From the IMG/VR virus record IMGVR_UViG_2526164662_000035, positions 1-19,618 of that record: 19,618 nucleotides of DNA. One strand, written 5' to 3'. Within the stretch, counting starts at the first letter, position 1. Each line of letters opens with the position of its first letter. Source of the DNA: a virus (taxonomy: Duplodnaviria; Heunggongvirae; Uroviricota; Caudoviricetes). This document shows positions 853 to 16,884 of this stretch, piece after piece. A model generated the notes under the pieces. It saw only the letters and a program-made list of their open reading frames with translations, did not search any database and was not told the DNA's origin. Position numbers and translations under genes: made by a program.

Positions 853-1187
853 TGAAACCTGTCTTTGATGAAAATGGTCTGGCAACGCAGGCCGGTGATA
901 TTCGTTGTTTTTATTACGATGCAGTGACCATGGAATATGCTGGCTGGTCAGATGAATATATTAACGCTGGCGTCAGCATGCCGGGTAATTCAACAGATGT
1001 TGATCCAGGTGAAATGGTTGATGGAAAGGTTTTTATGTTCACGGGCATCGGATGGCGACAGGATGAAGATCATCGTGGTGAAACGGTATATTCAACCGAT
1101 GATACCTCATCTTCCACTATAGATTATATCGGCCCAGTCAGGAAGGGGTACACAACTGTTGCGCCATCAGGACCATATCAAAAGTAG
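852..1187 (+). CDS. tfa: Tail fiber assembly protein (Tfa), N-terminal 111 aa, ending at an in-frame TAG
   Basis: ATG at 852 overlaps the tail fiber stop. The product ends ...EDHRGETVYS...SGPYQK, matching the conserved mid-region of lambda-type Tfa chaperones (...EDHRGKTVY...GEYQKW...). At 111 aa it is about 80 aa shorter than typical Tfa proteins. Confidence 0.8.
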   Translation: MKPVFDENGLATQAGDIRCFYYDAVTMEYAGWSDEYINAGVSMPGNSTDVDPGEMVDGKVFMFTGIGWRQDEDHRGETVYSTDDTSSSTIDYIGPVRKGYTTVAPSGPYQK

Positions 1188-1442
1188 GGACGGCAAAAAG
1201 TAGGGTAACGAGATACTGACACACAGCACGTTGCCGATGTTGAAGCCGCTGAACAGAAGAAGGCTGCGTTACTGGCTGAAGCGCAGGATAAAATAAGTCT
1301 CTGGCAGACAGAATTGCGACTGGACATCATCAGTGATGGGGATAAGGAAAGTCTGATTGCGTGGGTGCAGTACATAAAAGCCATTCAGGCTATAGATACT
1401 TCATCTGCGCCAAATATCAACTGGCCCACCGAACCAGAATAG
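1188..1442 (+). pseudogene. tfa: Tfa C-terminal conserved domain, in the same frame as the N-terminal part but cut off by TAG (1185-1187) and TAA (1206-1208)
   Basis: Same frame as 852-1187. Codons 1209-1439 translate to RDTDTQHVADVEAAEQKKAALLAEAQDKISLWQTELRLDIISDGDKESLIAWVQYIKAIQAIDTSSAPNINWPTEPE, the typical Tfa C-terminus (...LLAEA...W..Y...L..VDTS.AP.I.WP). No start codon of its own. The two stops sit in an imperfect 14-15 bp tandem repeat (caaaagtaggga / caaaaagtagggta). Confidence 0.65.
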
Positions 1443-1589
1443 GAACGTTTGGGGAAGAGTTAGATTAAGGGATGAACTAATTGATGATTAATGCTTTTAA
1501 TTACAAAAGTGTAACTGGAGGTGTATTATTATAAAATAAAAAACGAAGCGTGAGAAGGGGCAAAATAGACAATGGCAGCGCTTTTTATT

Positions 1590-1618
1590 TGTGCTTTGAG
1601 TGTTTAACTCAAAGCACA
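1590..1618. terminator. Perfect 12-bp stem hairpin (TGTGCTTTGAGT-gttta-ACTCAAAGCACA) in the intergenic region, possible bidirectional terminator
   Basis: Perfect inverted repeat read directly. T-rich on the upstream + side (gcgctttttattt) and moderately T-rich downstream. Lies between the tfa remnant and the 3' end of the minus-strand acyltransferase. Confidence 0.35.
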
Positions 1619-1871
1619 TGTTCTAAATTATTTACTTTCGTATTTAAGGGGGTTAGGTTATGACCATTTGGTCAAACAAAACGTTTTAAAAATTCTGCGA
1701 TGGGTTTTTCTATGTACATATGAATGACGCTGCCAGGCGCACAAACTTATTATAAAGTATATTCCAATATATAGGAATACATTGGAATAATCAATAAGTC
1801 CGAAAGACACAAACATATATGATACCCAAGCTGTAATCAAACCATGCGTCAAATATATACTATATGAAGCA

Positions 1872-2764
1872 TCACCGACGGAAAATAATAAGTTTAGCCG
1901 GTTTTATTTTACCTTCAAGGCTCAACGCTGCCCAGACACCATAAAAAGCGAAAAACCCCCATATCAAAGGACGATGCCATTCCCCCCCCATGTTTGTTGT
2001 AATATTAAAGTATTCACATAATAAGAATGTGGGAATAAACAAAGTTAATATTGTAAGCGCAATTGTTTTTTTTAACATAGCGCCCAGTAAGTATAATCGA
2101 TACATAAACATACCCATAGCAAATACGACCATTTCTGGTCTTGCCAGTGTTTTCATGAACGGAAGAATTTCGAATATGATGCTGTTATTTTGATAAGTTA
2201 AAATATTAGCTACTATGGATATAGTTAAAAATAAGATCTCTATATACTCTAACCTTGATAATTTGATAGCAATAAAAAATGCAAAAGAAGTATAAAACAA
2301 AAATTCAAGTTGTAATGTCCAACCTATACTTAGAATTGCATCGCGATGCCAGTGAGTGAATGTAATACTCTCAAGATACCATTGAAGACTGATTTTTGTT
2401 TCGGGCCACCAATAAGCAATAGGTGGAGTTGGGGAAGATATATAATGTTTTACTATGAAGGCTGATAGAACGCAAAGGGCGGTAATTAAAGCATATACCG
2501 GGATTATTCTTATTACTCTTCGCATAAAAAAGTTCCCTGCAGATATTTTGAATTCTCCTTCTGATTGAGAGCCACCATATGCTACGTAAGGTATAATAAA
2601 CCACTAATTATGAAAAATATAATAACGCCAAATCCTCCCAGAGATGCAAGGATTTCGATATTCCCAATGCCATATTGTCCAAGTTCGGCATGTGCCAAAA
2701 CCACCATAGCTGCAGCAATAAACCTTAGTGCTTGTATATTGAAAAGCGTTTTTCTTTTATTCAT
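1872..2764 (-). pseudogene. Acyltransferase family 3 (OafA/Oac-like, O-antigen acetyltransferase type) membrane protein, frameshifted near 2525-2585
   Basis: ORF 2582-2764 starts MNKRKTLFNIQALRFIAAAMVVLAHA...FFIISGLLYLT (typical acyltransferase-3 N-terminus). ORF 1872-2525 in another frame carries the signature RRVIRIIPVY and is strongly hydrophobic. My translation shows the second frame is open upstream to a stop at 2604-2606, so the break is a single frame shift around 2580-2590. The hydrophobic ORF 1658-1852 may be a further degraded 3' piece. The region is markedly AT-rich compared with the flanking tail genes. Confidence 0.7.
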
Positions 2765-2880
2765 TTATATACTGACCCAATTTTGTAATTATGAAACTTT
2801 AATTGATAAGGTAAGCATACTAAATAACTGATAAAAATAATAGATCAATTGAAGGGAACACAATCAGGGTTGTGCCATCT

Positions 2881-3176
2881 GCTAAACTCCAAATATTAAA
2901 AATCACTAATACCAGAGCACTAATGGGGCTCTCCATGATGTACTGGGGACAATTGGACAAAATGGAAAGGGAAATGATTGTTGAGCGAACGCAGGCGGGA
3001 TTAGCTGAGCACTCACTGGAGGTTGGATAGGTAGCCGTAGGCCAAACCTAACAGATGAACAATGGGCGCAGGCCGGGCGATTAATTGCATCAGGCGTTCC
3101 TCGCCAGAAGGTGGCGATCATCTATGATGTTGGTATATCGACACTGTATAAGAAGTTTCCGGTCGGAGATAAATGA
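2881..3176 (+). pseudogene. DNA invertase (Gin/Pin/Hin/Cin family serine recombinase), C-terminal remnant with a -1 frameshift and no catalytic N-terminal domain
   Basis: Frame 1 (2923-3030) reads MGLSMMYWGQLDKMEREMIVERTQAGLAEHSLEVG*. Frame 0 (3021-3176) reads GWIGSRRPNLTDEQWAQAGRLIASGVPRQKVAIIYDVGISTLYKKFPVGDK*, nearly the same as the Gin/Pin C-terminal HTH region (GRIGGRRPKLTPEQWAQAGRLIAAGTPRQKVAIIYDVGVSTLYKRFPAGDK, recalled from memory). The N-terminal ~120 aa with the catalytic serine is absent. Confidence 0.8.
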
Positions 3177-3236
3177 AACCGTAGCACGTCGTATGCAAGA
3201 AGATCGTGCTGCGGTTTATGCTTATCACTTAAAGAC

Positions 3237-4106
<870 letters not shown>

Positions 4107-4190
4107 CTAACCCTTTGAATTTACATAGCGCAAAAAGATACCTTTCCTCATAATGTGAGCTAATTTTATGTTTCGTTTGATGATCGGGTC

Positions 4191-4251
4191 GGTCTCGAAA
4201 ACCGGAGTAGGGGCAACTCTACTGGGGGTTCAAATCCCCCTCTCTCCGCCA
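4191..4251 (+). other. 3' fragment (61 nt) of tRNA-Ser(CGA), serU-like; att remnant, probably the prophage attR
   Basis: ggtctcgaaaaccggagtaggggcaactctactgggggttcaaatccccctctctccgcca: anticodon loop CUCGAAA, long variable arm, T-loop GTTCAAATC, acceptor 3' strand plus CCA. The 5' acceptor strand and D-arm are not present upstream, so this is not an intact tRNA gene. Confidence 0.8.
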
Positions 4252-4826
4252 CTTTATCAATGACTTATCTCCCGACTTCCCGCCTTGCTTTTCCTAAACA
4301 GAACAATCGTAGAATATTCTTGAAGGGTTAGATCGTCACTGTTTTCTGTTCGATACTGTGACATTCAGCACTTGATTCGCTATGGATCTGACAGGAAGGT
4401 TTCGAGCGAAAATCTGCAGTTATTCAGTCGTTTTCTTATCGGTCACCATTATTCTTTTAGACATTGATCCTACAAAGCTGCCGCAAAGTTGGTGGTGGGA
4501 ACTGAAGTTGCGTAGAGAAGGGGTCAATACCCGGAGGCACACATGGGCTGGCAAAAGTGTAGCGGTATTAGGCGCAGCTATTTAGCCTAGTTATGTTTTA
4601 TGAAAACTTGATATCATATAAGTGTCTTACTTATTGGCTGTAAATAAGTTTTTCCTAAGGAATTGTTTCTTGAGTATCATTTGTAACTGTAACGGAATTT
4701 ATAATCCTTTGCTTTATTGTTACGGTATTTTTTATCACACCCTATTTTTTATGTGGTTTTTTATACTGAAGTTTGGCAAAGTGAACTTTATATGCATATA
4801 CTTCATCCTGGTTTCAGTTAAATTGG

Positions 4827-5579
4827 GTGGATGATATGGCAACTACATGTTCAGTTATATTGATTTTGGAGTCCTTTGATATTTATTTCGGAAAAGAGAG
4901 TGTGTTTCTGGAGAGAGGTTCATCTGTACTTGTCGACTCTAGCTCTAGAGATTTTTTCCTGACATATCCTGAAAGAGTGATAGTGGCGGATTTTGGCGCT
5001 GAGTTTATTAGTCGCTATTTGAAAGCTAATAACTTAAGGGATATTTCTGATTGTAGGGAATATCCATCTTATTTAAAAATAAACTTTGCTGACTTCAGTT
5101 TAATTAAAGGATTAATTAGTTGGGCTAATCACTGTGCTGAATACATAGAAATTTTTGATGAGTCTATTGCTTTTACATGTCTCTCTGCATTTTCTTCTGA
5201 AAAACAATTTGGAGTATTTCTGTTTGGATGTTTGAAAAGCACAGGGGCTAAAGTTAAAACGATTATTCATACGGATTTATCTGCACCATGGCGTCTTAAG
5301 GATATATCATCAAGATTATATCTCAGCGAAAGTTTACTAAAGAGGAAATTGAAAGAAGAGGGGATATCATTCAGTAAGATCATACTTGATGAGAGGATGC
5401 AAATGGCTGAATATTTACTCAGCACTCGTTGTTATCCTATTAGTAAAGTAGCTAAGGTCTGTGGTTATGCCAGTGTCTCATACTTTACTTATGTATTTAG
5501 ACGTTATTTTGGTGTTTCTCCAAGTCAATACTCTCAGAGGAGTTCAGAAAGTAAAATTCTTACTCACCAGGGAATCTGA
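4827..5579 (+). CDS. AraC/XylS-family transcriptional regulator (AppY/GadX/Rns-like; low GC)
   Basis: C-terminal double-HTH signature: ...LSAPWRLKDISSRLYLSESLLKRKLKEEGISFSKIILDERMQMAEYLLSTRCYPISKVAKVCGYASVSYFTYVFRRYFGVSPSQYSQR. About 250 aa, like AppY-type regulators. The ATG at 4836 has better spacing to GGTGG and may be the true start. Confidence 0.85.
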   Translation: MDDMATTCSVILILESFDIYFGKESVFLERGSSVLVDSSSRDFFLTYPERVIVADFGAEFISRYLKANNLRDISDCREYPSYLKINFADFSLIKGLISWANHCAEYIEIFDESIAFTCLSAFSSEKQFGVFLFGCLKSTGAKVKTIIHTDLSAPWRLKDISSRLYLSESLLKRKLKEEGISFSKIILDERMQMAEYLLSTRCYPISKVAKVCGYASVSYFTYVFRRYFGVSPSQYSQRSSESKILTHQGI

Positions 5580-5584
5580 TCATT

Positions 5585-5850
5585 GTTCTTGCCCCCTTAT
5601 TTCCAGACAGGGGGTGTATCTTAAGTTAACGTTACCCGCTGACGTCGATATTCTCGCGGAGAGCGATAACCCAACGCACTGTGCGGATGGTTTTCATTGT
5701 AATGTTCGATCGCCACTGCAAGATTATGCAATGCCGTTCTTACATTCGGTTTCGGCATGAACGCGATGTAGTCTTCCTTCATCGTTTTCACGAATCTTTC
5801 TGCCATTCCATTACTCTGAGGACTGCTGATTACCCATGAGGAGTACAATT
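5585..5850 (-). mobile_element. Truncated IS2-like (IS3 family) element: 3' end of the orfB transposase plus the terminal inverted repeat
   Basis: Minus-strand ORF 5621-5848 translates to ...[63 protein letters not shown], the C-terminus of IS2 OrfB. Beyond its stop the minus strand reads ...CTGTCTGGAAATAAGGGGGCAAG, matching the IS2 terminal repeat (TGTCTGGAAATATAGGGGCAAATCCA, from memory). Only ~265 bp of the IS is present, abutting the AraC gene stop. Confidence 0.8.
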
Positions 5851-6068
5851 AAACGGGTTAATCAGTTTCTCCATTTGAAAGAAAAAAGACTTCTGTACTG
5901 TTTGATATCACCGCTATTTTCTTATTTTCTGTGCAGGTCGTAGTGGGACAAAACTGAGACACATAAGGCCTCACAATGGCTTGCAAGGCTTTACATGTTT
6001 TGATGTGGTGGGACGTGTGAGCGCAGTGTTGATGGGGTAATACTTTGAATTAGAAGCGGATTCTTATG

Positions 6069-6114
6069 ATTCGTAATGCGAAGGTCGTAGGTTCGACTCC
6101 TATTATCGGCACCA
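6069..6114 (+). other. 3' fragment (46 nt) of tRNA-Thr (thrW-like); att site
   Basis: attcgtaatgcgaaggtcgtaggttcgactcctattatcggcacca matches the 3' 46 nt of E. coli thrW including CCA. The 5' half of the tRNA is not present upstream. A 46-bp thrW core is what I recall for P22-type attachment sites. Confidence 0.85.
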
Positions 6115-6721
6115 TCAAGAAAATCAATAACTTAGCTTAACTTCTCTAAGAAATTGTATCTTCTGTTATCACTTACAAACGCCTATACGTTGTTATGGGC
6201 TTTGGTAGTGTAACACGTATGGGCGAGTAGTTCCCAGGCTCAACCTCGTAACAAGTTCCTTTGAAGCTGGAAGACGTGCCACCGTCTCTAAACCTTCTAC
6301 CAAAACTCTTAGCAAGATGTTCCACACCTGGCGCGGTGTCCAATGATGCTACACGTCGAGATGACGTCGCAGAGGATAAACAGGCTAAATGATGGGAAGA
6401 GTTTTAAGTGCAATAGTGGATTAAAGCCCACCTCTTCAAAACCTAACTTGATCGGGAAAGAATCAAGCTCTAGCACGGTTTCGTCCACCGGAGTACAACG
6501 GGTGCCTGATAAGAGAAGAACTGCTAAGACTTCATAGCTTTTGTGAAAAAGCCCTTTTTAGTGGATATGCCTACGGCGCTTATTTTTTGGTATAACCATC
6601 AAAGGCGCTTTATGGCTCCTATTGTCTTGAAAATGTATCTTTACTTGTATTGTGTTTTATGCGTAGTCTCCCTGTGTAGTATGTAACTTGTTAATTTTCA
6701 TATGAATACAGAGGCAACACG

Positions 6722-6874
6722 ATGAAAAACATTGCAGCTATAAAACGTAATAACCGCAAGATTCACGCTCGTAAGTTCCTGTCTACGCCAGAGGGAAAAG
6801 CCTGGCTAGAGCGTAAACAGCGAGAGAACGAAGAAAGAAAACTCCTTAGTGAGTTGAAATGGCTTAAGGATTGA
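6722..6874 (+). CDS. Small basic protein (50 aa), hypothetical
   Basis: ATG with AGAGG 9 nt upstream. Product MKNIAAIKRNNRKIHARKFLSTPEGKAWLERKQRENEERKLLSELKWLKD. Followed by a long hairpin at 6884-6927. Below the 60-aa cutoff of the supplied ORF track. Confidence 0.35.
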   Translation: MKNIAAIKRNNRKIHARKFLSTPEGKAWLERKQRENEERKLLSELKWLKD

Positions 6875-6883
6875 ATCACCAGT

Positions 6884-6927
6884 AGGCGCATAACACATCC
6901 AGCAATCAAAGATGTGTTTGTGCGCCT
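6884..6927 (+). terminator. Long imperfect hairpin (AGGCGCATAACACATC ... GATGTGTTTGTGCGCCT) after the small ORF; possible terminator or RNA structure
   Basis: Stem of ~16 bp with an 11-nt loop read directly. The T-run (agttttttag) is ~20 nt downstream, so it is not a canonical intrinsic terminator. Confidence 0.3.
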
Positions 6928-7424
6928 GATAGTGAAATTATTAAAGTTTTTTAGTTAATGTAGCCATTGCATGAACGATGATCGCTAGTGAATCGATTTT
7001 ATCTCGAGGGGTAAAATAGATGAGGTATATGATGGTAACAATTACAGCTAAAGTAATTGTGGTTCTGCAGGTTTTTAAAATGGATAAGATAAAGCGCATA
7101 GATACCCCCTATTGATTTAACAACAACAAGGTATCATTTATTTTTTATTGCATGCAATGTGCAAATTTTCACATATAATAGCTTACTATTCACTTTGCAT
7201 GGTGTCAACAAGATGATGTGTTGTTTTGTTTGATTTGTTCAAGATAATATTTCATTTTCTCATCTATATAACTTGTGTTTTAGATAATTTCACTAATTGT
7301 AAAAGTTACGTATTGCTTAATAGCTGCCTTTTTATCTGAAATCGGCGCAAACGTGATCAATGTTTAACGCGAAGATCAGCGGCGTCAGGTCCACGCAGCG
7401 ACAATTCTCAAATATCAGGAGGCA

Positions 7425-7982
7425 TTACGCTTCCTGCTCTTTCTTGATACGTTGCACCGTCTGTGTGCTGACACTGAAATCTTTTGCTACGCTCCGAATT
7501 GATCCACCATTCGCGAGAGCGGCAACAATTCCCGCTCGATCAATTGCTTTTCCATTACCACGTTTTGCTATACGTCCAGCGGCCTTAGCTGCGGCAATCC
7601 CCTCACGTTGCCGCTCAAGCATCATTTCACGTTCCATTTGTGCCACTGCTGCAAGCACTGTGAGCATCATATTCCCTGCGGGAGAGTTCTTCCCTGTCTT
7701 AAAGTCTTCTTTATGGAAATGCACAGACACGCCGCGCTCTGTTAATTGCTCAACCGTTGCCAGTAGGTCGGCTGTATTACGGCAAAGTCGATCAATGCTG
7801 TGAACATGCAAAACATCACCTTCACGCACATAGTTCATCATTGCCTCAAACTGTGGGCGCTGGGTATTCTTGCCTGACGCTTTATCTTCAAAGACTTTAT
7901 CAAGAGTTACTCCAGCTAATTGACGGTCTGTGTTTTGTTGGACAGTCGATACCCTAATGTATCCAATATTAGCCATTTTCAT
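7425..7982 (-). CDS. Small serine recombinase (resolvase/invertase family, 185 aa)
   Basis: N-terminal catalytic motif GYIRVSTVQQNTDRQ with the conserved Ser, a central ...DRLCRNTADLL... segment, and a C-terminal HTH (GGSIRSVAKDFSVSTQTVQRIKK). Length and layout match gamma-delta/Tn3 TnpR-type resolvases. GGAA lies upstream of the ATG. Confidence 0.9.
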   Translation of the reverse strand: MKMANIGYIRVSTVQQNTDRQLAGVTLDKVFEDKASGKNTQRPQFEAMMNYVREGDVLHVHSIDRLCRNTADLLATVEQLTERGVSVHFHKEDFKTGKNSPAGNMMLTVLAAVAQMEREMMLERQREGIAAAKAAGRIAKRGNGKAIDRAGIVAALANGGSIRSVAKDFSVSTQTVQRIKKEQEA

Positions 7983-7990
7983 TTTCCTTC

Positions 7991-8107
7991 TGTGTTGATT
8001 TGTGTGTAGTGATTATTGATCGTGTTGATTAGGTGTGTAAATGACTTTTTTCACTACGAAATTCGAAGGTTTTTAGTGTGGTGATTTAGCCTGCTTTATC
8101 ACTACAC
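7991..8107. promoter_or_regulatory. Cluster of GTGT(A/G/T)G(T)GATT motifs in both orientations just upstream of the serine recombinase; candidate res/operator site
   Basis: TGTGTTGATT (7991-8000), GTGTAGTGATT (8004-8014), GTGTTGATT (8022-8030), GTGTGGTGATT (8077-8087), and inverted ATCACTACAC (8098-8107) and TCACTAC (8051-8057). Multi-subsite res sites sit immediately upstream of resolvase genes in Tn3-family systems. Confidence 0.4.
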
Positions 8108-8504
8108 GTCTTGCATGAGAATCATGTAGTTATGCTTTGGTAAAATTAGCAAGCTATTAAATAGCGTGTTTATTTTGAAAAAATTAATTTTTTCAACACG
8201 TGAAAGGAACTTGTTCGACAAATAATAGATTGATTTTTAATCAACAATTTCTGATAGTGCTCTGTAAGCCACATTACACAAGGCGCAGCGAAAGTGATGT
8301 AAAAGTGAAGAAAGCTAACATTGCACTTTTAAGCTACTTTTCATTGAATTTTTAGTATGGAATTACATAGGGATTAATCATCAATTAATCTTGAATTTAA
8401 GCCTGTTTTAGATGTTTAATTTTTGATAGCAAGAAACACTTTTAGAAGATCATTGCACAGATGTTATGTGATAAATGGATGTAACGGTAGGTCACTGTGA
8501 ACTA

Positions 8505-8640
8505 CCCCCCACAGAATTCTGTTATCCTTAACTTTTAAAGAAATATGCACCCTAACAGAAAACTGTTACCCCAACCCTAACAGAATTATGTTAGACACCC
8601 CCACAGAAAACTGTTAGCCACCCCTACAGAATTTTGTTAC
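8505..8640 (+). repeat. Array of five phased iterons, each a palindrome CCC-(T)AACAG-N4-CTGTTA, spaced ~23 bp (first one 44 bp upstream)
   Basis: Copies centred on ACAGAATTCTGT (8511-8522), TAACAGAAAACTGTTA (8553-8568), TAACAGAATTATGTTA (8578-8593), CACAGAAAACTGTTA (8602-8616), TACAGAATTTTGTTA (8625-8639). ACAG start positions 8511, 8555, 8580, 8603, 8626. Each is preceded by a short C-run. An AT-rich tract follows at ~8641-8720. Confidence 0.8.
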
Positions 8641-9135
8641 CTATTAGATCAACTATCAAACTACAATTAAATTATCTTTTATAAATTCTTTTATCTTTAA
8701 AGAATAATTATAGGGATACCCGTTAGGGGAGTCTTCGACTATCCCTTAATCTATTGGCATTCGCCAGAACCTTGCACAAGTTAGAGTGTTAGTCGTTAGA
8801 CTGCTTGTCATAACACATAGTTTTTTGTTTGTTGATGTTAGTTAGTAGATCTATGTTCGCTAATGCCGCTCACAACGAATATGTAATCTACTATGTGCAA
8901 ATAGCCTACGGCTTGCGTAAGGCTAAATAGTCTTGCGCTGTGCGCAGAACGATAATTAACTAACTACCATCTAACGATCATCAATCTATTTAAGAGAAAA
9001 TCTATTGTGCAATACTCTGACGAGTGCAATAACCTTGTGTGCTACGCGTTAGCGATGTTAGCACATAGACACAGACAACAACCAACAACAAACAAAAAGA
9101 ATGGTTTTAGTAGTTGAAGGTTAAATAAGATTCTA

Positions 9136-9365
9136 CCGCTTAAATCAAGCCGTAGGCGAGCTAAACGTATATAAGGTAGGGAAACACTTAGCGGTAATAG
9201 ATTAGCTCGTTATAGAGTTTCTGAGAGCTTTGCAGGTATTTTATAAGATGTCTGAAATTAGATTTTATCTATCATCATCTTCCCATATACCTAACAAATA
9301 CAAAATAACCCCCTTAAATAAGCCTCTGGCGAGCTAAACAGCCATTACATAAGGGAATGTATTGT
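9136..9365 (+). repeat. Two copies of a ~45-bp imperfect direct repeat (CTTAAAT-AAGCC-N3-GGCGAGCTAAAC...ATAAGG..GGGAA) about 173 bp apart
   Basis: 9136-9187 cgcttaaatcaagccgtaggcgagctaaacgtatataaggtagggaaa versus 9309-9365 cccttaaataagcctctggcgagctaaacagccattacataagggaatg. A tandem GCGTTTTAGA x2 follows at ~9388-9407. Confidence 0.6.
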
Positions 9366-9500
9366 TTTTATCAAAACCTCGTTAGAACGCGTTTTAGAGC
9401 GTTTTAGACAATAATAAAGAATAGCACTACACATGAGAGCACGAATTGCTAAGAAATATCATAACTTACTGAAAATGATCAATATTTATATGGATAGGGG

Positions 9501-9529
9501 TTGACAAAAGCTTTTAGTCGTGGTAAAGT
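9501..9529 (+). promoter_or_regulatory. Sigma70-like promoter candidate (TTGACA-17 bp-TAAAGT) upstream of the early small-gene cluster
   Basis: TTGACA at 9501-9506, 17-nt spacer, TAAAGT at 9524-9529. The first gene of the cluster starts at 9650 with a strong AGGAGG ribosome-binding site. Confidence 0.3.
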
Positions 9530-9649
9530 AATATTAGGGACAGAAAACATTCTTATCCTCTAAGTAATTAAACCAATGCACCGCACTTTGAAGCCCAAGG
9601 CTTGCAAGGTGTCTTTTTCTTTTAACCAAATAGAATAGGAGGTTAATTA

Positions 9650-9850
9650 ATGAAGTATTACACTCCACAGGATGTAATCGAAGCCTGGAAACGTGGTGAG
9701 ATCAATCGTTTTAAAGTAAGGATGAACAGGAACACAGCGCGACGCTGTGGTTATCCAGAGCGTGAAAAATGCTTTGACGATGCACTAAAAATTATTGATG
9801 AATTAAGAAAAAATGAAAAAGGATCTGAAAAAGAATCTGAAACAGAGTAA
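9650..9850 (+). CDS. Hypothetical small protein (66 aa)
   Basis: Strong ribosome-binding site (aggaggttaattaATG). Charged product MKYYTPQDVIEAWKRGEINRFKVRMNRNTARRCGYPEREKCFDDALKIIDELRKNEKGSEKESETE. First gene after the 1.7-kb noncoding region. Confidence 0.5.
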   Translation: MKYYTPQDVIEAWKRGEINRFKVRMNRNTARRCGYPEREKCFDDALKIIDELRKNEKGSEKESETE

Positions 9851-9869
9851 AGAAGAGAAGGAGAAAACT

Positions 9870-10040
9870 ATGAGCGAAACTACAGAAAAGAAAAGACAAC
9901 CACGCACTTGCTTTCATATTCCTGATGAAGTATTTCAGGTGTTGTTTAAAGAAGCCAGAAGTAAACGTATCACTGTTACAGATTACATTCTTGATATGTT
10001 GAAAAGAGAGGCTGAAACACTCTCAAACAAAAGCAAGTGA
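9870..10040 (+). CDS. Putative ribbon-helix-helix (Arc/CopG-like) DNA-binding protein (56 aa)
   Basis: ATG at 9870 preceded by GGAGAA. Product MSETTEKKRQPRTCFHIPDEVFQVLFKEARSKRITVTDYILDMLKREAETLSNKSK shows a beta-strand/helix/helix pattern (RTCFHIP / DEVFQVLFKEA / VTDYILDMLKRE) typical of RHH regulators. The ORF-track start at 9813 overlaps the upstream gene and is less likely. Confidence 0.45.
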   Translation: MSETTEKKRQPRTCFHIPDEVFQVLFKEARSKRITVTDYILDMLKREAETLSNKSK

Positions 10041-10093
10041 TTTTTATCACCATAGTAGCGCCGTAGAGCGTGATTACATCAAGGAGATTTTTA

Positions 10094-10663
10094 ATGATTA
10101 ATGAAGAACAATTTGTAAAAGTTCCTATGTGGATTCTAAAAATAAGCCAAGTAAACGGGCATAAATTTACAGATAGTGCTAAAAACCTTTACTGCTATTT
10201 GAGAGGGTTTGATCGTGCATTTCCCTCTTACGCTAAGATAGGCGATGTTTTTGGCATAACACCAAGAGCAGCAGAAGAAAGGGTTAAGAAATTGCTCGAA
10301 ATGGGATTAATTATAAAAGATGCACGACCAGGAAGCTCTAACCTTTATCGAGTGCTTGATATTCCAAAAGGAGAATCATCACTACCTGATCCTTCTGAGA
10401 AAGAAGACGAATCTAATGAAATATTGAATGTTTCCGAAATCATCGTTGAAGAAGAAACACAGGAATCAGAGTTCCCTGAGCGGCCCGAAATTTTTACTTG
10501 GCTTCTTTCCCTTGATAAGAAGAAACCACCGCACGAAGAAACAGAAGATTTTGTAAAACGTGCATTAGATTCAAAGAATATCTATCTTGAGAAACAGGCT
10601 TTTCACGATCTGATAATATCTCTAAGAGAAAAAAGTGAAATATACGATTCAATACCATTCTAA
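10094..10663 (+). CDS. Winged-helix DNA-binding protein with an acidic C-terminal region; candidate replication initiator or iteron-binding protein
   Basis: ATG at 10094 with AAGGAG 7 nt upstream. N-terminal region MINEEQFVKVPMWILKISQVNGHKFTDSAKNLYCYLRGFDRAFPSYAKIGDVFGITPRAAEERVKKLLEMGLIIKD resembles the winged-helix N-terminal domain of phage/plasmid replication initiators. Function is inferred. Confidence 0.45.
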   Translation: MINEEQFVKVPMWILKISQVNGHKFTDSAKNLYCYLRGFDRAFPSYAKIGDVFGITPRAAEERVKKLLEMGLIIKDARPGSSNLYRVLDIPKGESSLPDPSEKEDESNEILNVSEIIVEEETQESEFPERPEIFTWLLSLDKKKPPHEETEDFVKRALDSKNIYLEKQAFHDLIISLREKSEIYDSIPF

Positions 10664-10672
10664 GGAGAATAA

Positions 10673-10942
10673 ATGACTTATAACATCACTATAGGAAACA
10701 AAACTATTGAAATAACTGAAAGCGGATACAACATTTTAAAAGCTATTTTGGACATAGAGTTCTCACCCCCGACAGTGGTTAGCTTTTGTAGTTTAGGCGG
10801 CTACAGCGCACAACATGTGAATCATTGGTTAAACCATTTTACATCGTTCGGTGTGCTGGATTATGAAGGGATTAACCACACTACATTTCGTCTTTTGAAA
10901 TTAAACAAAGATTTTGAATTGTTTATCACAAACAATCAATAA
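10673..10942 (+). CDS. Hypothetical protein (89 aa)
   Basis: ATG preceded by AGGAG (taaggagaataaATG). 10 nt after the upstream gene, consistent with an operon. Confidence 0.5.
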   Translation: MTYNITIGNKTIEITESGYNILKAILDIEFSPPTVVSFCSLGGYSAQHVNHWLNHFTSFGVLDYEGINHTTFRLLKLNKDFELFITNNQ

Positions 10943-11038
10943 CAACAGATCGGGCAATACATATGGCAAATGCATTTATGGCGATATTCATCGTAACAAT
11001 GGTATCAAGTTTTTATAATCCACATAAAAAGAGAGAAA

Positions 11039-11422
11039 ATGGGAAGAAAGAAAAAGAACAACTTAAAACGTATTGAAAAAAACAGTAACTTCAATTCAAC
11101 AAGACAACGTCCACCGACACACACCAATAACGAAATTCCAGGGGAAGAGATAATATTTATTCTTGAAACAGAATCCCCTGAAATAAGCGATGAAGAACAA
11201 GAAATAATCAAATCAATGCCAGGCGTTTACTTTCGCCCAAGAACAAGAAAACAAACAATAATTTCTGATGGCACTCTGAAACGTTGGCAGCTTTTAGGGT
11301 TTAGCTCCTATCATCATTTTTTGGGATTTAACGCTTTCAATAATTGTGTAGGTGGTGCATCGGAAGTCGATCTGATGGCTCATTTAGAAGCTACATTAGC
11401 TTCTAACAAACGCTCTAACTAA
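11039..11422 (+). CDS. Hypothetical protein (127 aa), basic N-terminus and acidic middle
   Basis: ORF with N-terminal MGRKKKNNLKRIEK and a central acidic stretch ETESPEISDEEQEI. No recognisable catalytic motif. Confidence 0.45.
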   Translation: MGRKKKNNLKRIEKNSNFNSTRQRPPTHTNNEIPGEEIIFILETESPEISDEEQEIIKSMPGVYFRPRTRKQTIISDGTLKRWQLLGFSSYHHFLGFNAFNNCVGGASEVDLMAHLEATLASNKRSN

Positions 11423-11437
11423 TAAAAGGATGGTCGT

Positions 11438-11683
11438 ATGTATAAGCGCCCAATGAAAATATTCGAAAAAGGAAAAATAATGATTGGCTATATTCAAGAA
11501 ACACAATTATTTCAGATGATCCTGTCTGATGCAAAAAACTATGCTGAGTTAATCCGACTGGCAAAAGAAACAGAAGACTACGAAGCATTAGAGCGTTATC
11601 GTGATGAAGTGCTGACGCTCAAGACACCTTTTAACATCGTATTGAATATGATTAATGATGCATTACAAGGAGAAGCCGCATAA
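11438..11683 (+). CDS. Hypothetical small protein (81 aa)
   Basis: ATG preceded by AAGGATGG. Stop overlaps the start of the next ORF (TAATGG), suggesting translational coupling. Confidence 0.45.
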   Translation: MYKRPMKIFEKGKIMIGYIQETQLFQMILSDAKNYAELIRLAKETEDYEALERYRDEVLTLKTPFNIVLNMINDALQGEAA

Positions 11684-11991
11684 TGGAAGAAGATATTAGC
11701 AATGCAATGGAACAACTTTTAGATCTGACTATCTCACTACAAACAAGAATAAATCAAGCCTATTCAGATTTATGCGATTACACGCTCTCTCAATGCGTTA
11801 TTAGCTTAATGAAGGTGAATGTAAGCCTTGACGATTTTATCTCTCTGGTGAGCGATTTAGAGCTAATTGAGGACGATGCCAAGATGTGCACTCAAACCAT
11901 CACAGACACCGCCAGCACGTTAAAGGCTGCAAGTGAAGAGATTCAGCAATTAGTAGATGATTTAGCAAAAAGTGCTATTCCCTCTAAATGA
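11683..11991 (+). CDS. Hypothetical acidic helical protein (102 aa)
   Basis: Start overlaps the upstream stop. Last gene before the second ORF-free region. Confidence 0.45.
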   Translation: MEEDISNAMEQLLDLTISLQTRINQAYSDLCDYTLSQCVISLMKVNVSLDDFISLVSDLELIEDDAKMCTQTITDTASTLKAASEEIQQLVDDLAKSAIPSK

Positions 11992-12734
11992 TAATGAAAA
12001 TCATTTGCATTTATATAATAAAAATGTTATATTTGTATTAAGGGTAGATAAAAAGGTTTTGACTGGTGTTAATCCTTCTACTGTCATAAATCCCTGCATA
12101 TGGAAGGTGATAGCCTCAAGGGTTGAGTGGCATTAACCTCTAACAAATATTACCTTCCATCTCTCAAGAAGTTTTAGAATAATCATAACTCCCTCTTTGA
12201 TTGTTGATTGTTTCTACGTTGTGTTGATGAATGTTGTTAGGCATTGTGCTTAATTTTGATAAAAGCGGGTAGGTGTTATCTCCTTGCCCTTCCCGCTCTT
12301 ATTTTTCATCTATGCTTATCCTAAAGCTCCTTATTTTGTCCGAAAACATTAAAGAGCCTTACACTGATAGTTATATTTTATAACTATTTACTAACATCAT
12401 TAAACTCTTATTTAATGACAGAAGTTAGTAACAGAATAATCTATTAAGTTGTTGTCAAAAAACTATCATCTGCATAGCGTTAGCCGCAAGCAGAGAGAGT
12501 TTAGCTAAGAATTGTGCAATAACCTTTGGAAATATTGATAGCAAAACGGGTTTTATAGACTGCAAATCTATAATCTTTGGTTGTAAAAACGCTTTTTCTG
12601 AAACGGTAGATTATTGTTGGTGTAGTTAATCCCTATTAAAATTTAATCTGTGAGTAGATTGGAATAGTGATTCCTTAAAATCTGACTGGTGCATCCACAC
12701 CATGAAAGATAGCGGTTAGCCACCGCACCCGAAT

Positions 12735-12790
12735 AGATATTCCTGATTGATTCCGCATGTTTTCCTAAGAGCATGTTTTCAGGAATATCT
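12735..12790. repeat. Perfect 12-bp inverted repeat AGATATTCCTGA ... TCAGGAATATCT around a 32-bp spacer containing GCATGTTTTC twice
   Basis: Read directly: 12735-12746 and 12779-12790 are exact reverse complements. The spacer holds the direct repeat GCATGTTTTC x2. Confidence 0.7.
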
Positions 12791-12897
12791 GTTCACCCTT
12801 TAAACCTATCTTTAAGCATGTTTAATAAGCATTCTTAGAGATACGTTTAAAACCTCCTCAAGGTTTTACTTATCGCTGTGTATTGCCCGACACGTTA

Positions 12898-12950
12898 ATA
12901 AATCCCCCTCGCTATTCTCAGATTGAACCTCTTATAGCCTGGGGGATTTA
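12898..12950. repeat. Perfect 10-bp inverted repeat TAAATCCCCC ... GGGGGATTTA around a 33-bp spacer, just upstream of the structural cluster
   Basis: 12898-12907 and 12941-12950 are exact reverse complements. Lies ~30 bp upstream of the ORF starting at 12983. Confidence 0.6.
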
Positions 12951-12982
12951 TTAAATTCCAACATAATGGAATCGTTATATAA

Positions 12983-13192
12983 ATGAAACAAGAAATTATC
13001 CTGAAATATGGCAATGAAAAGTTAACACTAACTGAAGATGTGTTGAATGCTACAGCCTACGCGCTTGGTATCACTCCCACAGAATTAAAGAAACAGTGTG
13101 AACGTCTTTATAAGGCTGAAAGCAATAAACCATCTCACCAAGATTTGATTAATGCTAAAGCTCAACAAATCAAACAATCTAAGGAAAAATAA
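12983..13192 (+). CDS. Hypothetical small protein (69 aa), first gene of the structural-type cluster
   Basis: ORF whose stop overlaps the next start (TAATGG). Confidence 0.45.
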   Translation: MKQEIILKYGNEKLTLTEDVLNATAYALGITPTELKKQCERLYKAESNKPSHQDLINAKAQQIKQSKEK

Positions 13193-13566
13193 TGGCTATT
13201 TTAAAATTAAGCGATGTTTTCCTACATCGTAAAAGCATCACTGACGTAGTGAGCTATGCAACCGACCCTTACGCGGCTGTAGAAAGCAAAAAATTTGCAG
13301 CACTTGCACAAGATGTAACGTGCGGCGACCTCATTGATTCATCCGGCGCTAAATATGTTAGCGGCGCTGATGTTCTTGTCGTTGTGTCTGACTTCGTAAC
13401 TGCTGATTCAAATAAAACAGTTAACGTGCTTCGTGCTAATGCCGGACTCGTTTGCATCAAAGCTGATGCCCTGAATGCCGAAGGCGCTGTAAAAGAAGCT
13501 GCTATTGCAGCTCTCGCTGCTAAAGGCTTCCAGCTTGAAGGCTTCCACTCTGTTTTCACATCTTAA
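13192..13566 (+). CDS. Possible head decoration or scaffold protein (124 aa), positioned like lambda gpD
   Basis: AAGGAA ribosome-binding site. Ala/Val/Gly-rich product immediately upstream of the gpE-like capsid gene. The gpD analogy rests on position and size only; sequence similarity is weak. Confidence 0.4.
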   Translation: MAILKLSDVFLHRKSITDVVSYATDPYAAVESKKFAALAQDVTCGDLIDSSGAKYVSGADVLVVVSDFVTADSNKTVNVLRANAGLVCIKADALNAEGAVKEAAIAALAAKGFQLEGFHSVFTS

Positions 13567-13582
13567 GAAGGAATAAATAATA

Positions 13583-14611
13583 ATGATTATCGGAAATGAA
13601 GTGGTTGATCTTGCTCCACTGTTCGAATTAAACGACTCACGCAATTACCTACTGTCTACTCTGGATTTTACTGATCCTGTGCCTGTAGAAAGTCACAAAG
13701 TGGCTGTTTCCCAGCTTATCGAGAGCAATGAATCTCTGTTCAACCATCCTACAAGCCGTTTTAGCTCTGAGCATAACGTTACTAAGCGTGAGAACGGGGA
13801 AGAATATCTTATTGAAATCCCGTACTTTTTAAGGGAAGACCTGATCAAACCGCAGGACGTGCAAGGCAAACGCAAAGCCGGAAGCTCTATTGAAGAAACA
13901 CTGCCGGATCTGTATGCGGAATATATCGCTAAACACAATGTTGCATTCCAGCGCACTAAAGAAAGCATCCTCGCGGCTTCTCTGTTCTCTGGCAAGACAC
14001 ACACCCCGAAAACTGACGATGTTCTGATCGATTACAGCACTCTGTTCGGTGTGTCTCCAATGACTGCAACCGTTGACGCATCCAGCACCAACACAATGAC
14101 CGTATTCAAGCAATTTGATCAGATGCATACGGATATGATTGCTAAGGCACAAAGCCAGGCTGCAACCATTGAGCGTGTTGTTGTGTTCTGTAAACCTGCG
14201 GCATTCAACGCTATTCGTTACAGCGTTGGCATGGTTAATGCGTTCCAGTATGCAAGCCCTGTAGACGATGCAAACGTGGTGTTTAATGTGCGTTCTCTGC
14301 TGCCTGGTGTAACTACTTTCACCATTCCAGGAACTAACATTGACCTGATCAAAGTGACTGATCCGCTGCTGCTGGCACATATGACCGCTGACGCTGTAGC
14401 TATTCCTAAACTTGCTAAGGGGGCAGGTGTTTACCAAGCTATTTTTGGTGCGCCTTCCAGTTCATTCGATCTGCTGTCTCAAGGCGCTAAAGAGTATTAC
14501 AGCTATGCTTTCGAATCGAATCGCGGCGACGCAGTGCACGTAGTGACCGAGAATAGCTCGCTTGTGGTTAACCACGGTGTTGGCTTCTCTGTGCAGATCA
14601 CAGTAGCGTAA
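13583..14611 (+). CDS. Putative major capsid protein, lambda gpE family (342 aa)
   Basis: GAAGGA ribosome-binding site. Length matches lambda gpE (341 aa). Local matches to gpE as I recall it: HKVAVSQLIE vs EKVYLSQIPG near the N-terminus, and C-terminal GFSVQITVA vs EFVSVQLA. Needs profile confirmation. Confidence 0.55.
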   Translation: MIIGNEVVDLAPLFELNDSRNYLLSTLDFTDPVPVESHKVAVSQLIESNESLFNHPTSRFSSEHNVTKRENGEEYLIEIPYFLREDLIKPQDVQGKRKAGSSIEETLPDLYAEYIAKHNVAFQRTKESILAASLFSGKTHTPKTDDVLIDYSTLFGVSPMTATVDASSTNTMTVFKQFDQMHTDMIAKAQSQAATIERVVVFCKPAAFNAIRYSVGMVNAFQYASPVDDANVVFNVRSLLPGVTTFTIPGTNIDLIKVTDPLLLAHMTADAVAIPKLAKGAGVYQAIFGAPSSSFDLLSQGAKEYYSYAFESNRGDAVHVVTENSSLVVNHGVGFSVQITVA

Positions 14612-14763
14612 AAAGTGTTAAAGACGTTCCCCTACGTCTGGAAATAATCGGGGCAATAAGGGTAAGGGATAATCATATAAGCAAAATATGCGCTGTCTCT
14701 TGCCCTTTTTGTTTTTCTACTGTCTACAAACCTAAATAAAAATATATATGTGAGAGAAAACCA

Positions 14764-14961
14764 ATGAACACAGAAAATTCACAGGCATTAATTCTTAAAT
14801 CTGTAAAAGAACTGGCAGCTATTAGCGATGACTCAATAATCAATGTCAGTGCCTTATGCAGAATGCTTTCAATTGATGCAAATAATGTGCGTCAGCGTGT
14901 CTTTCAGACTGGATGTAGCACTTTCGAAGCAATCCAATATTATTGCTCTAAAAAACAATAA
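14764..14961 (+). CDS. Hypothetical small protein (65 aa)
   Basis: ORF between the capsid-like gene and the 613-aa gene. Weak ribosome-binding site. Confidence 0.35.
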   Translation: MNTENSQALILKSVKELAAISDDSIINVSALCRMLSIDANNVRQRVFQTGCSTFEAIQYYCSKKQ

Positions 14962-14995
14962 CAAATAACAATCATAATACAGGGAAACAATTAAC

Positions 14996-16837: not shown

Positions 16838-16884
16838 TCATCACTGTGGGGCGGTTTAGCCCCCTTAAATAAGGATTACAAATT

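What the first reader, a model, noticed from the sequence alone, without database searches (positions are those of the whole stretch)
7425..8107. Resolvase-type serine recombinase with a candidate multi-subsite res site upstream, inside an integrase-bearing element
An element that already has a tyrosine integrase also encodes a 185-aa serine recombinase, and directly upstream of it is a cluster of GTGT(A/G/T)GTGATT motifs in direct and inverted orientation. That is the typical arrangement for an autoregulated res site. Carrying both recombinase types suggests a plasmid-like multimer-resolution function for a replicating form, or an undiscovered inversion switch.
Basis: partly seen in the sequence, partly recalled or inferred. 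Interest (0 to 1): 0.45.

Follow-up and report, generated by a model that had tools for sequence, protein, structure and literature searches.

The report
Resolvase gene with its res site
A small mobile island in an E. coli chromosome carries an intact resolvase gene and, just upstream, a 115-bp three-part binding site for that enzyme; this is an ordinary plasmid-style system for resolving DNA multimers, although this branch has not been studied.

Summary
ORF 7425-7982 (-), more likely starting at 7976 (183 aa), is a catalytically intact small serine recombinase. The ~115 bp upstream (7992-8106) holds six copies of a GT(A/G)GTGA-type half-site. These form three subsites:
- Site I: a 30-bp inverted repeat at 8077-8106, furthest from the gene.
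- Site II: 8022-8058, spanning the -35 of the gene's predicted promoter.
- Site III: 7992-8014, two half-sites in direct repeat between the -10 and the ribosome-binding site.

Seventeen homologous loci, including small plasmids and other islands, show the same layout. Each lineage has its own half-site sequence, and that sequence tracks the recognition helix of the protein. So this is a matched res/resolvase pair.

The gene is under purifying selection. There is no second site in the window, no transposase remnant, and no invertible segment.

The gene lies in a 13-kb att-bounded, integrase-bearing, satellite-like island. That island also has an O-like replication initiator and an iteron array 400 bp from res.

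The most likely role is resolving multimers of the circular replicating form, with self-repression of the gene. That role is inferred, not shown.

It is a new member of a known kind, of modest interest.

The parts
7425..7976 (-). Small serine recombinase (resolvase) gene, 183 aa from ATG 7976. The longest ORF starts at 7982 and gives 185 aa. It is RefSeq WP_001273869, 'recombinase family protein'.
   Evidence: Pfam PF00239 at 1.1e-38 plus an HTH. PHROG_125 at 2e-62. Best solved relatives are Tn3 and gamma-delta resolvase at about 1e-27, and Gin at 7e-25. Y6, R8, S10, D36, R68 and R71 (Tn3 numbering) are all conserved. Synonymous versus non-synonymous codon differences against allelic copies are 27:4, 22:1 and 19:0.
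8077..8106 (-). res site I, the predicted crossover site: a 30-bp inverted repeat, TGTAGTGAT-AAAGCAGGCTAA-ATCACCACA on the gene strand. Its centre falls at 8091/8092.
   Evidence: It is the only match in the window to the 30-bp pattern, against 0.02 expected. It sits in the same position with a conserved centre AGCAnnCT in 17 homologous loci.
8022..8058 (-). res site II, a predicted accessory site. A forward half-site CGTAGTGAA (8058-8050) and a reverse half-site AATCAACAC (8030-8022) flank the -35 hexamer.
   Evidence: The forward half-site, the CCTTGA/-35 block and the reverse half-site are all conserved in the alignment.
7992..8014 (-). res site III, a predicted accessory site and operator. 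Two half-sites in the same orientation, AATCACTACAC (8014-8004) and AATCAACAC (8000-7992), lie between the -10 and the ribosome-binding site.
   Evidence: The same direct-repeat pair sits just before the RBS in the homologues.
8012..8041 (-). Predicted sigma-70 promoter of the recombinase gene: -35 TTTACA at 8041-8036, an 18-nt spacer, and -10 AATAAT at 8017-8012. It is embedded in sites II and III.
   Evidence: Consensus scan, 10 of 12 matches. -35-like (TTGAYW) and -10-like (TATAAT, CATAAT, TACAAT) hexamers at matching positions, read by eye in five homologues (L005, L015, L017, L023 and the window).
6091..6118 (+). Left att repeat of the 13-kb island. It lies within a partial copy of the 3' end of tRNA-Thr (thrW), which starts at about 6069.
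   Evidence: A 28-nt direct repeat with 19058-19085. thrW lies at this position in NZ_CP047378.
19058..19085 (+). Right att repeat of the island.
   Evidence: Homology to sibling elements ends at about 19083.
17643..19007 (-). Tyrosine integrase of the island.
   Evidence: Pfam Phage_integrase at 4e-17 plus a SAM-like domain. PHROG_1.
8504..8642 (+). Array of five 24-nt iteron-like repeats (ACAGAAnnnTGTTA core, 23-25-bp period; the first copy stands 44 bp from the second), followed by an AT-rich stretch. This is the candidate replication origin of the island, about 400 bp from res.
   Evidence: Sibling elements with a divergent initiator carry different repeats at the same place.
10070..10663 (+). 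Replication initiator, lambda-O-like, of the island.
   Evidence: PHROG_270, 678, 8540 and 391, all 'replication initiation (O-like)', at 1e-8 to 1e-4.

Best explanation
The gene at 7425-7976 (-) encodes an active small serine resolvase, and the 115 bp upstream of it (7992-8106) is its matching res site.

**Shown from sequence**
- The catalytic residues are intact, and the gene is under purifying selection.
- Six half-sites are grouped into three subsites. That grouping is conserved in order and position across the family.
- The half-site sequence changes together with the protein's recognition helix.
- The gene's predicted promoter lies inside sites II and III.
- There is one res copy in the window and one in each element examined.

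**Inferred, by analogy with Tn3/gamma-delta resolvase**
1. Three resolvase dimers bind each res.
2. When two res copies lie in direct repeat on one supercoiled circle, the dimers at sites II and III intertwine the two sites. A dimer or higher multimer of the excised, replicating 13-kb island would give this arrangement.
3. The site-I dimers then cut at the central dinucleotide (8091/8092), rotate and rejoin, which yields monomers.
4. In the single integrated copy nothing recombines. There, binding at sites II and III simply represses the gene's own promoter.

The module is an accessory plasmid-type stability function. It sits beside the island's origin and initiator, and it is shared with small ColE1-like and cryptic plasmids.
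For: **The protein**
- Y6, R8, S10, D36, R68 and R71, the residues crucial in Tn3 resolvase (PMC2794168), are all present.
- Selection: 19-27 synonymous against 0-4 non-synonymous codon differences between alleles that are 94-97% identical.

**The site**
- Searches place the half-sites and show that they cluster.
- The overall geometry resembles Tn3 res: 115 bp and three dimer sites with different spacers. Tn3 res is 114 bp with three dimer sites (PMC2602789), and its subsites also differ in spacer length (PMC9943657).
- Site I lies furthest from the gene.

**Comparative evidence**
- Seventeen loci align colinearly through sites I, II and III and the promoter hexamers.
- Eight half-site variants each pair with a particular recognition helix. 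For example, STQTVQRIK goes with GTAGTGA in four loci that are only 64-69% identical overall, STNTISRIK goes with GTAGCGA, and APSTVQRIK goes with GTATYCA.
- The site-I arms of a locus predict on average 4.0 further matches in that locus's own site II/III region. Arms taken from other lineages give 1.1.

**Context**
- Homologues sit on plasmids of 2-6 kb, one of which has ColE1 RNAI.
- The island has att repeats, an integrase, an O-like initiator and iterons.
- The iterons change together with the initiator allele.
Against: - No binding, cleavage or resolution has been shown for this protein or for any close relative.
- The subsite boundaries and the crossover position are read from symmetry alone.
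- Site III is a direct repeat, not the inverted repeat seen in Tn3.
- The central dinucleotide here is AG/CT, not the palindromic AT found in several homologues (read by eye).
- The recombinase lies in the variable arm of the island, between att and about 8190. Sibling elements such as L006 and L007 lack it, so it is dispensable for the island's life cycle.
- Nothing shows that the island actually replicates as a circle.
- A phage-satellite-like element might be expected to benefit from concatemers, not from monomers.
- Within E. coli, divergence is too low to show extra conservation of half-sites over spacers.
Confidence: 0.7

Rival explanations
1. The module is a selfish or 'shuffling' unit. 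Its main effect would be res x res recombination between different replicons: fusion and re-sorting of small plasmids, large plasmids and islands that carry compatible res sites. Multimer resolution of this island would then be secondary.
For: - The same recombinase/res unit appears in unrelated backbones: thrW and tRNA-Gly islands, an IncF plasmid, ColE1-type and cryptic small plasmids, and about 2-kb circles whose only annotated gene is the recombinase.
- A gene scoring identically to that of the 2-kb circles (68.9% identity to the query) is also found inside 104-kb and 201-kb plasmids.
- It lies in the variable arm of the island.
- E. coli plasmid L005 has the same recognition helix and the same half-site as the window.
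- Kholodii 2001 proposed such a shuffling role for CinH (cited in PMC9501444).
Against: - In siblings that lack the module, homology resumes at 8190-8233. That is 80-130 bp beyond site I, not at the predicted crossover.
- Resolvases of this architecture are described as strongly biased to intramolecular deletion (PMC5698047, PMC9943657).
Confidence: 0.13
2. It is a DNA invertase of the Hin/Gin type that flips a nearby segment, for example the 1.5-kb ORF-free stretch at 8110-9650 that holds the rightward promoter.
For: PHROG_125 is labelled 'DNA invertase'. Gin is a fairly close solved relative at 7e-25. A long non-coding region with a strong promoter-like site at 9501-9529 lies next to the gene.
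Against: - There is no second copy of the site anywhere in the window in either orientation.
- 294 of 296 E. coli genomes carry gene plus res as one uninterrupted match, and the sibling loci fetched align colinearly with the window through 8190-10100.
- A three-subsite layout is characteristic of resolvases.
- Homologues sit singly on 2-6-kb plasmids.
Confidence: 0.03
3. It is an orphan TnpR with its res, left behind by a decayed Tn3-family transposon and with no present function.
For: Its best solved relatives are Tn3 and gamma-delta resolvases. Some distant plasmid hits are annotated tnpR.
Against: - The flanks 6112-7424 and 8110-9650 show no transposase or inverted-repeat remnant, even in a distant blastn against 72,556 plasmids. 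No ORF over 66 aa adjoins the gene.
- The gene is intact and under purifying selection.
- A second allele, 58-63% identical, with its own matching res occupies the same slot in sibling islands.
- Close homologues lie on plasmids that have no transposase.
Confidence: 0.04
4. It is a domesticated DNA-binding regulator. The protein would only repress transcription through the repeats and would no longer recombine DNA.
For: The binding sites overlap a promoter. The chromosome offers a single site with no partner.
Against: All six residues crucial for catalysis are kept across the family, which a pure repressor would not need. Site I lies upstream of the promoter, keeps a conserved centre, and has no obvious operator role.
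Confidence: 0.05

Closest known systems
Tn3 / gamma-delta resolvase with its 114-bp res (sites I, II, III)
   Same: - A small serine recombinase of about 183 aa with the same catalytic residues.
- A res of about 115 bp directly upstream of the gene, with three dimer sites of unequal spacing. The crossover-type inverted repeat is furthest from the gene, and the accessory sites lie over the gene's own promoter (PMC2602789, PMC9943657).
   Different: - The protein match is only distant (phmmer 1e-27).
- No tnpA and no transposon ends are present.
- The half-site is GTAGTGA-like, whereas I recall TGTCYNNTA for Tn3 (from memory).
- Site III is a direct repeat of half-sites, not an inverted repeat.
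- The host is an integrase-borne island or a small plasmid, not a replicative transposon.
CinH-RS2 of Acinetobacter plasmids pKLH2, pKLH204 and pKLH205 (189 aa, 119-bp site)
   Same: - A plasmid-borne small serine resolvase with a res of about 119 bp (PMC5698047, PMC9501444).
- Acinetobacter plasmids are the largest group of plasmid hits to this protein, 38 of 65 records.
- A. lwoffii homologues of 188-189 aa are 49% identical to it.
   Different: I could not obtain the CinH or RS2 sequences, so identity with those Acinetobacter homologues is unverified. At best it is about 50% identical, with different half-sites.
Sin (resH) and beta recombinase (six) of Gram-positive plasmids
   Same: These are plasmid multimer or cointegrate resolvases. 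Their accessory site has half-sites in direct repeat (PMC9943657), as site III does here.
   Different: Those res sites have only two dimer sites plus an HU/IHF site. Here there are three dimer sites and only 18 bp between sites I and II. The protein match is weaker (Sin 1e-18).
ParA-MRS of RK2/RP4
   Same: It has the same biological role proposed here: a serine resolvase acting on a site of about 106 bp to resolve plasmid multimers (PMC5698047).
   Different: It is a 222-aa protein encoded in the parCBA operon. No sequence comparison could be made here.
Hin / Gin / Cin / Pin DNA invertases
   Same: They have the same fold and size, and PHROG_125 groups them together.
   Different: There is no pair of inverted sites and no invertible segment here, and the site has several subsites.

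Membership tests
Small serine recombinases (resolvase/invertase family, PF00239 plus a C-terminal HTH) | An N-terminal catalytic domain with the nucleophilic Ser and the conserved Tyr, Arg and Asp residues (Tn3 Y6, R8, S10, D36, R68, R71). | tested here: met
   PF00239 at 1.1e-38 over residues 6-137. All six residues align in the Tn3 alignment. Y6, R8, S10, R68 and R71 are invariant across the 19 homologues; D36 is D in most of them and E in a few. The importance of these residues comes from PMC2794168.
Small serine recombinases (resolvase/invertase family, PF00239 plus a C-terminal HTH) | A C-terminal helix-turn-helix DNA-binding domain and a total length of about 180-200 aa. | tested here: met
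   HTH_23 at 1.2e-5 over residues 146-182. Length 183-185 aa.
res/resolvase systems (Tn3-like three-subsite architecture) | Several dimer-binding subsites with different half-site spacing next to the gene, with one crossover site. | tested here: met
   Six half-sites form site I (30 bp, inverted repeat), site II (37 bp, inverted repeat) and site III (23 bp, direct repeat). They are colinear in 17 loci. This is sequence evidence only.
res/resolvase systems (Tn3-like three-subsite architecture) | The repeats are the recombinase's own binding sites. | tested here: met
   Half-site variants change together with the recognition helix. Own-versus-foreign motif counts are 4.0 against 1.1. Physical binding cannot be tested with these tools.
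res/resolvase systems (Tn3-like three-subsite architecture) | Recombination limited to directly repeated sites on one supercoiled molecule (resolution selectivity). | not testable with these tools
   This needs in vivo or in vitro two-site substrates.
res/resolvase systems (Tn3-like three-subsite architecture) | Self-regulation through accessory sites that overlap the promoter. | tested here: inconclusive
   The predicted -35 and -10 lie inside sites II and III, and promoter-like hexamers sit at matching positions in the homologues inspected. No expression data exist.
Tn3-family transposon TnpR | Linked to tnpA and to 38-bp terminal inverted repeats. | tested here: not met
   No adjacent ORF exceeds 66 aa. 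No transposon-like similarity appears in the flanks. Homologues lie on plasmids that lack a transposase.
Hin/Gin-type DNA invertases | Two recombination sites in inverted orientation flanking an invertible segment. | tested here: not met
   Only one site exists in 19.6 kb. No orientation polymorphism was seen.
Hin/Gin-type DNA invertases | A Fis-bound recombinational enhancer. | not tested
   The Fis consensus is too degenerate for a meaningful scan.
CinH-RS2 | Sequence identity to CinH (189 aa) and to the 119-bp RS2 site. | not testable with these tools
Acinetobacter homologues of 188-189 aa are 49% identical.

The most novel reading that the evidence does not exclude
The res/resolvase unit may be a portable docking module that links two otherwise separate pools of mobile DNA in Enterobacteriaceae: small non-mobilisable plasmids, and an undescribed family of 13-kb capsid-encoding, satellite-like islands. 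Under this reading, res x res recombination would let plasmids and islands fuse and swap cargo. Alternatively, the island may use the resolvase to switch between a monomeric plasmid-like carrier state and concatemers for packaging.
Probability: 0.1. Interest if true: 0.55.

Novelty: new member of a known kind. Interest (0 to 1): 0.3.

Why it matters
- **Annotation.** It identifies 115 bp of unannotated sequence as the likely res site of a 'recombinase family protein' found in about 5% of complete E. coli genomes (296 of 5426).
- **A testable specificity series.** It defines an uncharacterised clade of resolvases in which helix and half-site change together across eight variants. That could be useful for engineering orthogonal excision tools of the CinH/ParA type.
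- **The host island.** It suggests the island has a plasmid-like circular phase, because integrase, resolvase/res, origin and initiator are all present. The island itself, with its own capsid, tape-measure-like and Dit-like genes but no portal or terminase, is the more unusual object and deserves a separate look.

Tried and rejected
- **Rfam** over the whole window found nothing at gathering thresholds. No tRNA is called either, because only a partial thrW copy is present.
- **A naive search for the best inverted repeat** in 60 upstream regions was too noisy to define subsites. A MAFFT alignment of the 17 closer loci replaced it.
- **Conservation of half-sites versus spacers** among E. coli alleles gave too few substitutions to say anything: 6 variable positions in 115 bp.
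- **Recombination breakpoints at the crossover** were sought in sibling islands. Homology instead resumes at 8190-8233.
- **The CinH/RS2 reference sequences** could not be retrieved from the literature held.
- **Literature searches for the island family** found no description.
- **IMG/VR scans** returned prophage-type contigs of 20-58 kb, most with isolate-genome-style identifiers. None was a free 13-kb circle, so they say nothing about a replicating form.
- **Counting islands with and without the recombinase**, using the capsid gene as a marker, failed because capsid alleles are too diverse for megablast.
- **Rejected readings:** inversion switch, orphan TnpR, and pure repressor. See the rival explanations.

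Full report
**1. Where the window comes from**

The window is E. coli chromosomal DNA. Positions 6069-19618 match NZ_CP047378 at 99.9%. There the sequence follows proA and tRNA-Thr (thrW) and ends at a tyrosine integrase, a LysR remnant and paoD.

No tRNA is called in the window, because only the 3' part of thrW is present, from about 6069. A 28-nt direct repeat at 6091-6118 and 19058-19085 bounds a 12.97-kb island.

Window 1-6068 is a different island. It carries an AraC-type regulator, a GIY-YIG protein and an acyltransferase fragment, and it is inserted in tandem at the same tRNA.

**2. Checking the observation**

ORF 7425-7982 (-) is real. It is a small serine recombinase:
- Pfam Resolvase at 1.1e-38 plus a C-terminal HTH.
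- PHROG_125 matched end to end at 2e-62.
- Closest solved structures: Tn3 and gamma-delta resolvase at about 1e-27, Gin at 7e-25, and Sin at 1e-18.

The six residues shown to be crucial in Tn3 resolvase are Y6, R8, S10, D36, R68 and R71 (PMC2794168). All six are present here.

The start is probably ATG 7976, giving 183 aa as in RefSeq:
- Homologues begin MANIGY.
- L010 lacks the upstream ATG.
- The AGGA at 7988-7985 is 8 nt from 7976.

Three weaker half-sites add to these: GTGTTGATT at 7992 and 8022, and GTAGTGAA at 8050-8057 (-).

The 11-mer count alone is not significant (3 against 1.07 expected). The clustering is. Four of ten GTRGTGA heptamers fall within 128 bp. The full 30-bp palindromic pattern occurs once against 0.02 expected.

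**3. What the repeats are**

Read on the gene strand, the 115 bp from 8106 to 7992 resolve into three subsites:
- **Site I, 8077-8106:** TGTAGTGAT-AAAGCAGGCTAA-ATCACCACA, a 30-bp inverted repeat.
- **Site II, 8022-8058:** an 18-bp gap follows site I. Then come CGTAGTGAA, a 19-bp spacer containing TTTACA, and AATCAACAC.
- **Site III, 7992-8014:** after a 7-bp gap, AATCACTACAC and AATCAACAC lie in the same orientation and end 3 nt before the Shine-Dalgarno sequence.

The only good promoter match on this strand is TTTACA-18-AATAAT at 8041-8012. Its -35 lies inside site II, and its -10 touches site III.

The decisive evidence is comparative. Protein homologues at 58-81% identity were collected from two sources:
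- small plasmids (L002-L005);
- one genome per species (L010-L089).

Seventeen upstream regions align colinearly. The shared order is a 30-bp site I with a conserved centre AGCAnnCT, a forward half-site, a conserved CCTTGA/-35 block, a reverse half-site, a -10, and two reverse half-sites just before the RBS.

The half-site itself differs between lineages: GTAGTGA, GTAGCGA, GTACCGA, GTATTCA, GTATYCA, GTTGYAA, GTAGTAA and GTATCGA. Within a locus the same variant recurs in every subsite.

The variant also follows the recognition helix:

| Recognition helix | Half-site | Loci |
|---|---|---|
| STQTVQRIK | GTAGTGA | window, L005, L015, L023 (only 64-69% identical overall) |
| STNTISRIK | GTAGCGA | L017-L020 |
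| APSTVQRIK | GTATYCA | L009, L022 |
| SLNTVYRVQ | GTATCGA | L004 |

As a quantitative check, I took the two arms of site I from each locus and counted matches in the site II/III region. They hit on average 4.0 more times in the same locus, against 1.1 in loci of other lineages.

So this is a matched protein/site pair, not a chance cluster.

**4. Is the gene alive?**

Gene plus res occurs in 296 of 5426 complete E. coli genomes. In 294 of them it is a single match covering at least 80% of the query. All 40 listed rows are annotated as a recombinase family protein.

Against alleles 94-97% identical, codon differences are overwhelmingly synonymous: 27:4, 22:1 and 19:0.

A second allele, 58-63% identical and with its own res (TGTATYCAT half-sites), occupies the same slot in sibling islands (L009, L022).

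**5. Context**

The island also carries:
- an array of five 24-nt iteron-like repeats at 8504-8642, followed by an AT-rich stretch;
- a lambda-O-like initiator at 10070-10663;
- a gpE-family major capsid protein, only about 25% identical to any phage capsid in INPHARED;
- a tape-measure-like 613-aa protein and a Dit-like protein;
- the integrase.

Sibling islands with a 30%-identical initiator carry different iterons at the same place. This supports an origin/initiator pair about 400 bp from res.

Siblings also sit at a tRNA-Gly next to actS/xdhA, and one lies inside an IncF plasmid.

The recombinase lies in the variable arm between att and about 8190-8233. L006 and L007 have other cargo there and no recombinase. 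The module is therefore accessory to the island.

**6. Mechanism**

The closest functional model is Tn3/gamma-delta res:
- It is 114 bp long and binds three dimers (PMC2602789).
- Its subsites differ in spacer length (PMC9943657).

Site III here is a direct repeat. That recalls site II of Sin (PMC9943657).

Plasmid homologues point to the role. They include several plasmids of 2-6 kb with no transposase, and one of them has ColE1 RNAI. On replicons like these, the canonical job of a resolvase is multimer resolution.

I therefore propose two activities:
1. The protein resolves multimers of the excised, replicating island, or cointegrates that carry two res sites.
2. It represses its own promoter through sites II and III.

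The sequence architecture, the co-variation, the catalytic integrity, the selection and the single-copy status are shown. Binding, crossover position, topological selectivity, self-regulation and the biological role are inferred.

**7. Rivals**

- **Inversion switch.** Not supported. There is no partner site and no orientation polymorphism.
- **Orphan TnpR.** Not supported. No transposon remnant is found, the gene is under selection, and allelic replacement with matching res sites occurs at the same slot.
- **Shuffling or docking role between replicons.** This stays open, because the module occurs in many backbones. However, the homology breakpoints in siblings do not coincide with site I.
- **Pure repressor.** Unlikely, because the catalytic residues are conserved.

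**8. Comparison and novelty**

The system belongs to the small serine recombinases and to the res/resolvase class. It is not a Tn3-family TnpR, because there is no tnpA and there are no inverted repeats. It is not a Hin/Gin invertase either.

The nearest characterised system may be CinH-RS2 of Acinetobacter plasmids (189 aa, 119-bp site; PMC5698047, PMC9501444). Acinetobacter homologues of 188-189 aa are 49% identical. I could not obtain the reference sequences to confirm this.

Verdict: a new, uncharacterised member of a well-known kind. The 13-kb host island is the more unusual object.

Noticed in passing
window 8504-8715: Five 24-nt iteron-like repeats (CACCCnnACAGAAnnnTGTTAnCC, 23-25-bp period; the first copy stands 44 bp from the second) are followed by an AT-rich stretch. 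This is a likely replication origin for the O-like initiator at 10070-10663. Sibling islands with a divergent initiator (L007, L009) have different repeats at the same place.
   Followed up: partly
window 6091-19085: The 13-kb att-bounded island encodes a gpE-family capsid protein (about 25% identical to rV5-like phage capsids), a tape-measure-like 613-aa protein and a Dit-like protein. No portal, terminase or tail-tube gene was recognised. It looks like a phage satellite, but two literature searches found no description of it.
   Followed up: partly
L006 and L008 (tRNA-Gly beside actS/xdhA); L090 (IncF plasmid NZ_CP126938, next to sopAB): The same island family uses at least two tRNA attachment sites. 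One copy, interrupted by IS3 elements, sits inside a conjugative IncF plasmid.
   Followed up: no
window 6112-7424, 8110-9650, 11991-12983: These are unusually long stretches without credible ORFs inside a 13-kb element, about 3.8 kb in total. Only a conserved 50-aa ORF (6722-6874) is annotated in relatives. No Rfam family matches.
   Followed up: no
window 9306-9322, 16857-16873 (weaker copy at 11171-11187); 9135-9166 and 9308-9339: A 17-nt motif TARCCCCCTTAAATAAG recurs upstream of the early operon and just before the Dit-like gene. A 32-nt repeat ending in GGCGAGCTAAAC occurs twice, 173 bp apart. Their function is unknown.
   Followed up: no
L002 (NZ_AP027492, 1952 bp); also NZ_CP130129 (2000 bp) and NZ_CP116175 (1985 bp): About 2-kb circular 'plasmids' have as their only annotated gene a 68-69%-identical homologue of this recombinase, with its own res. 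A gene scoring identically (68.9% identity to the query) also lies inside 104-kb and 201-kb E. coli plasmids. Rfam detected no replication function on L002.
   Followed up: partly
window 1-6068: A separate island lies in tandem at thrW. It carries an AraC-type regulator (4827-5579), a GIY-YIG-domain protein (3237-4061, -) and an acyltransferase fragment (1872-2525, -). It ends at the partial thrW copy at about 6069.
   Followed up: no
window 9501-9529: A strong sigma-70-like promoter (TTGACA, 17 nt with an extended TG, TAAAGT) faces the rightward operon that starts at 9650. The second gene of that operon (9813-10040) looks, by eye, like a ribbon-helix-helix protein.
   Followed up: no
NZ_CP025881.1 and other E. 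coli chromosomes: Some genomes carry two or three copies of the recombinase/res module on one chromosome. I did not examine whether these copies are linked to rearrangements.
   Followed up: no
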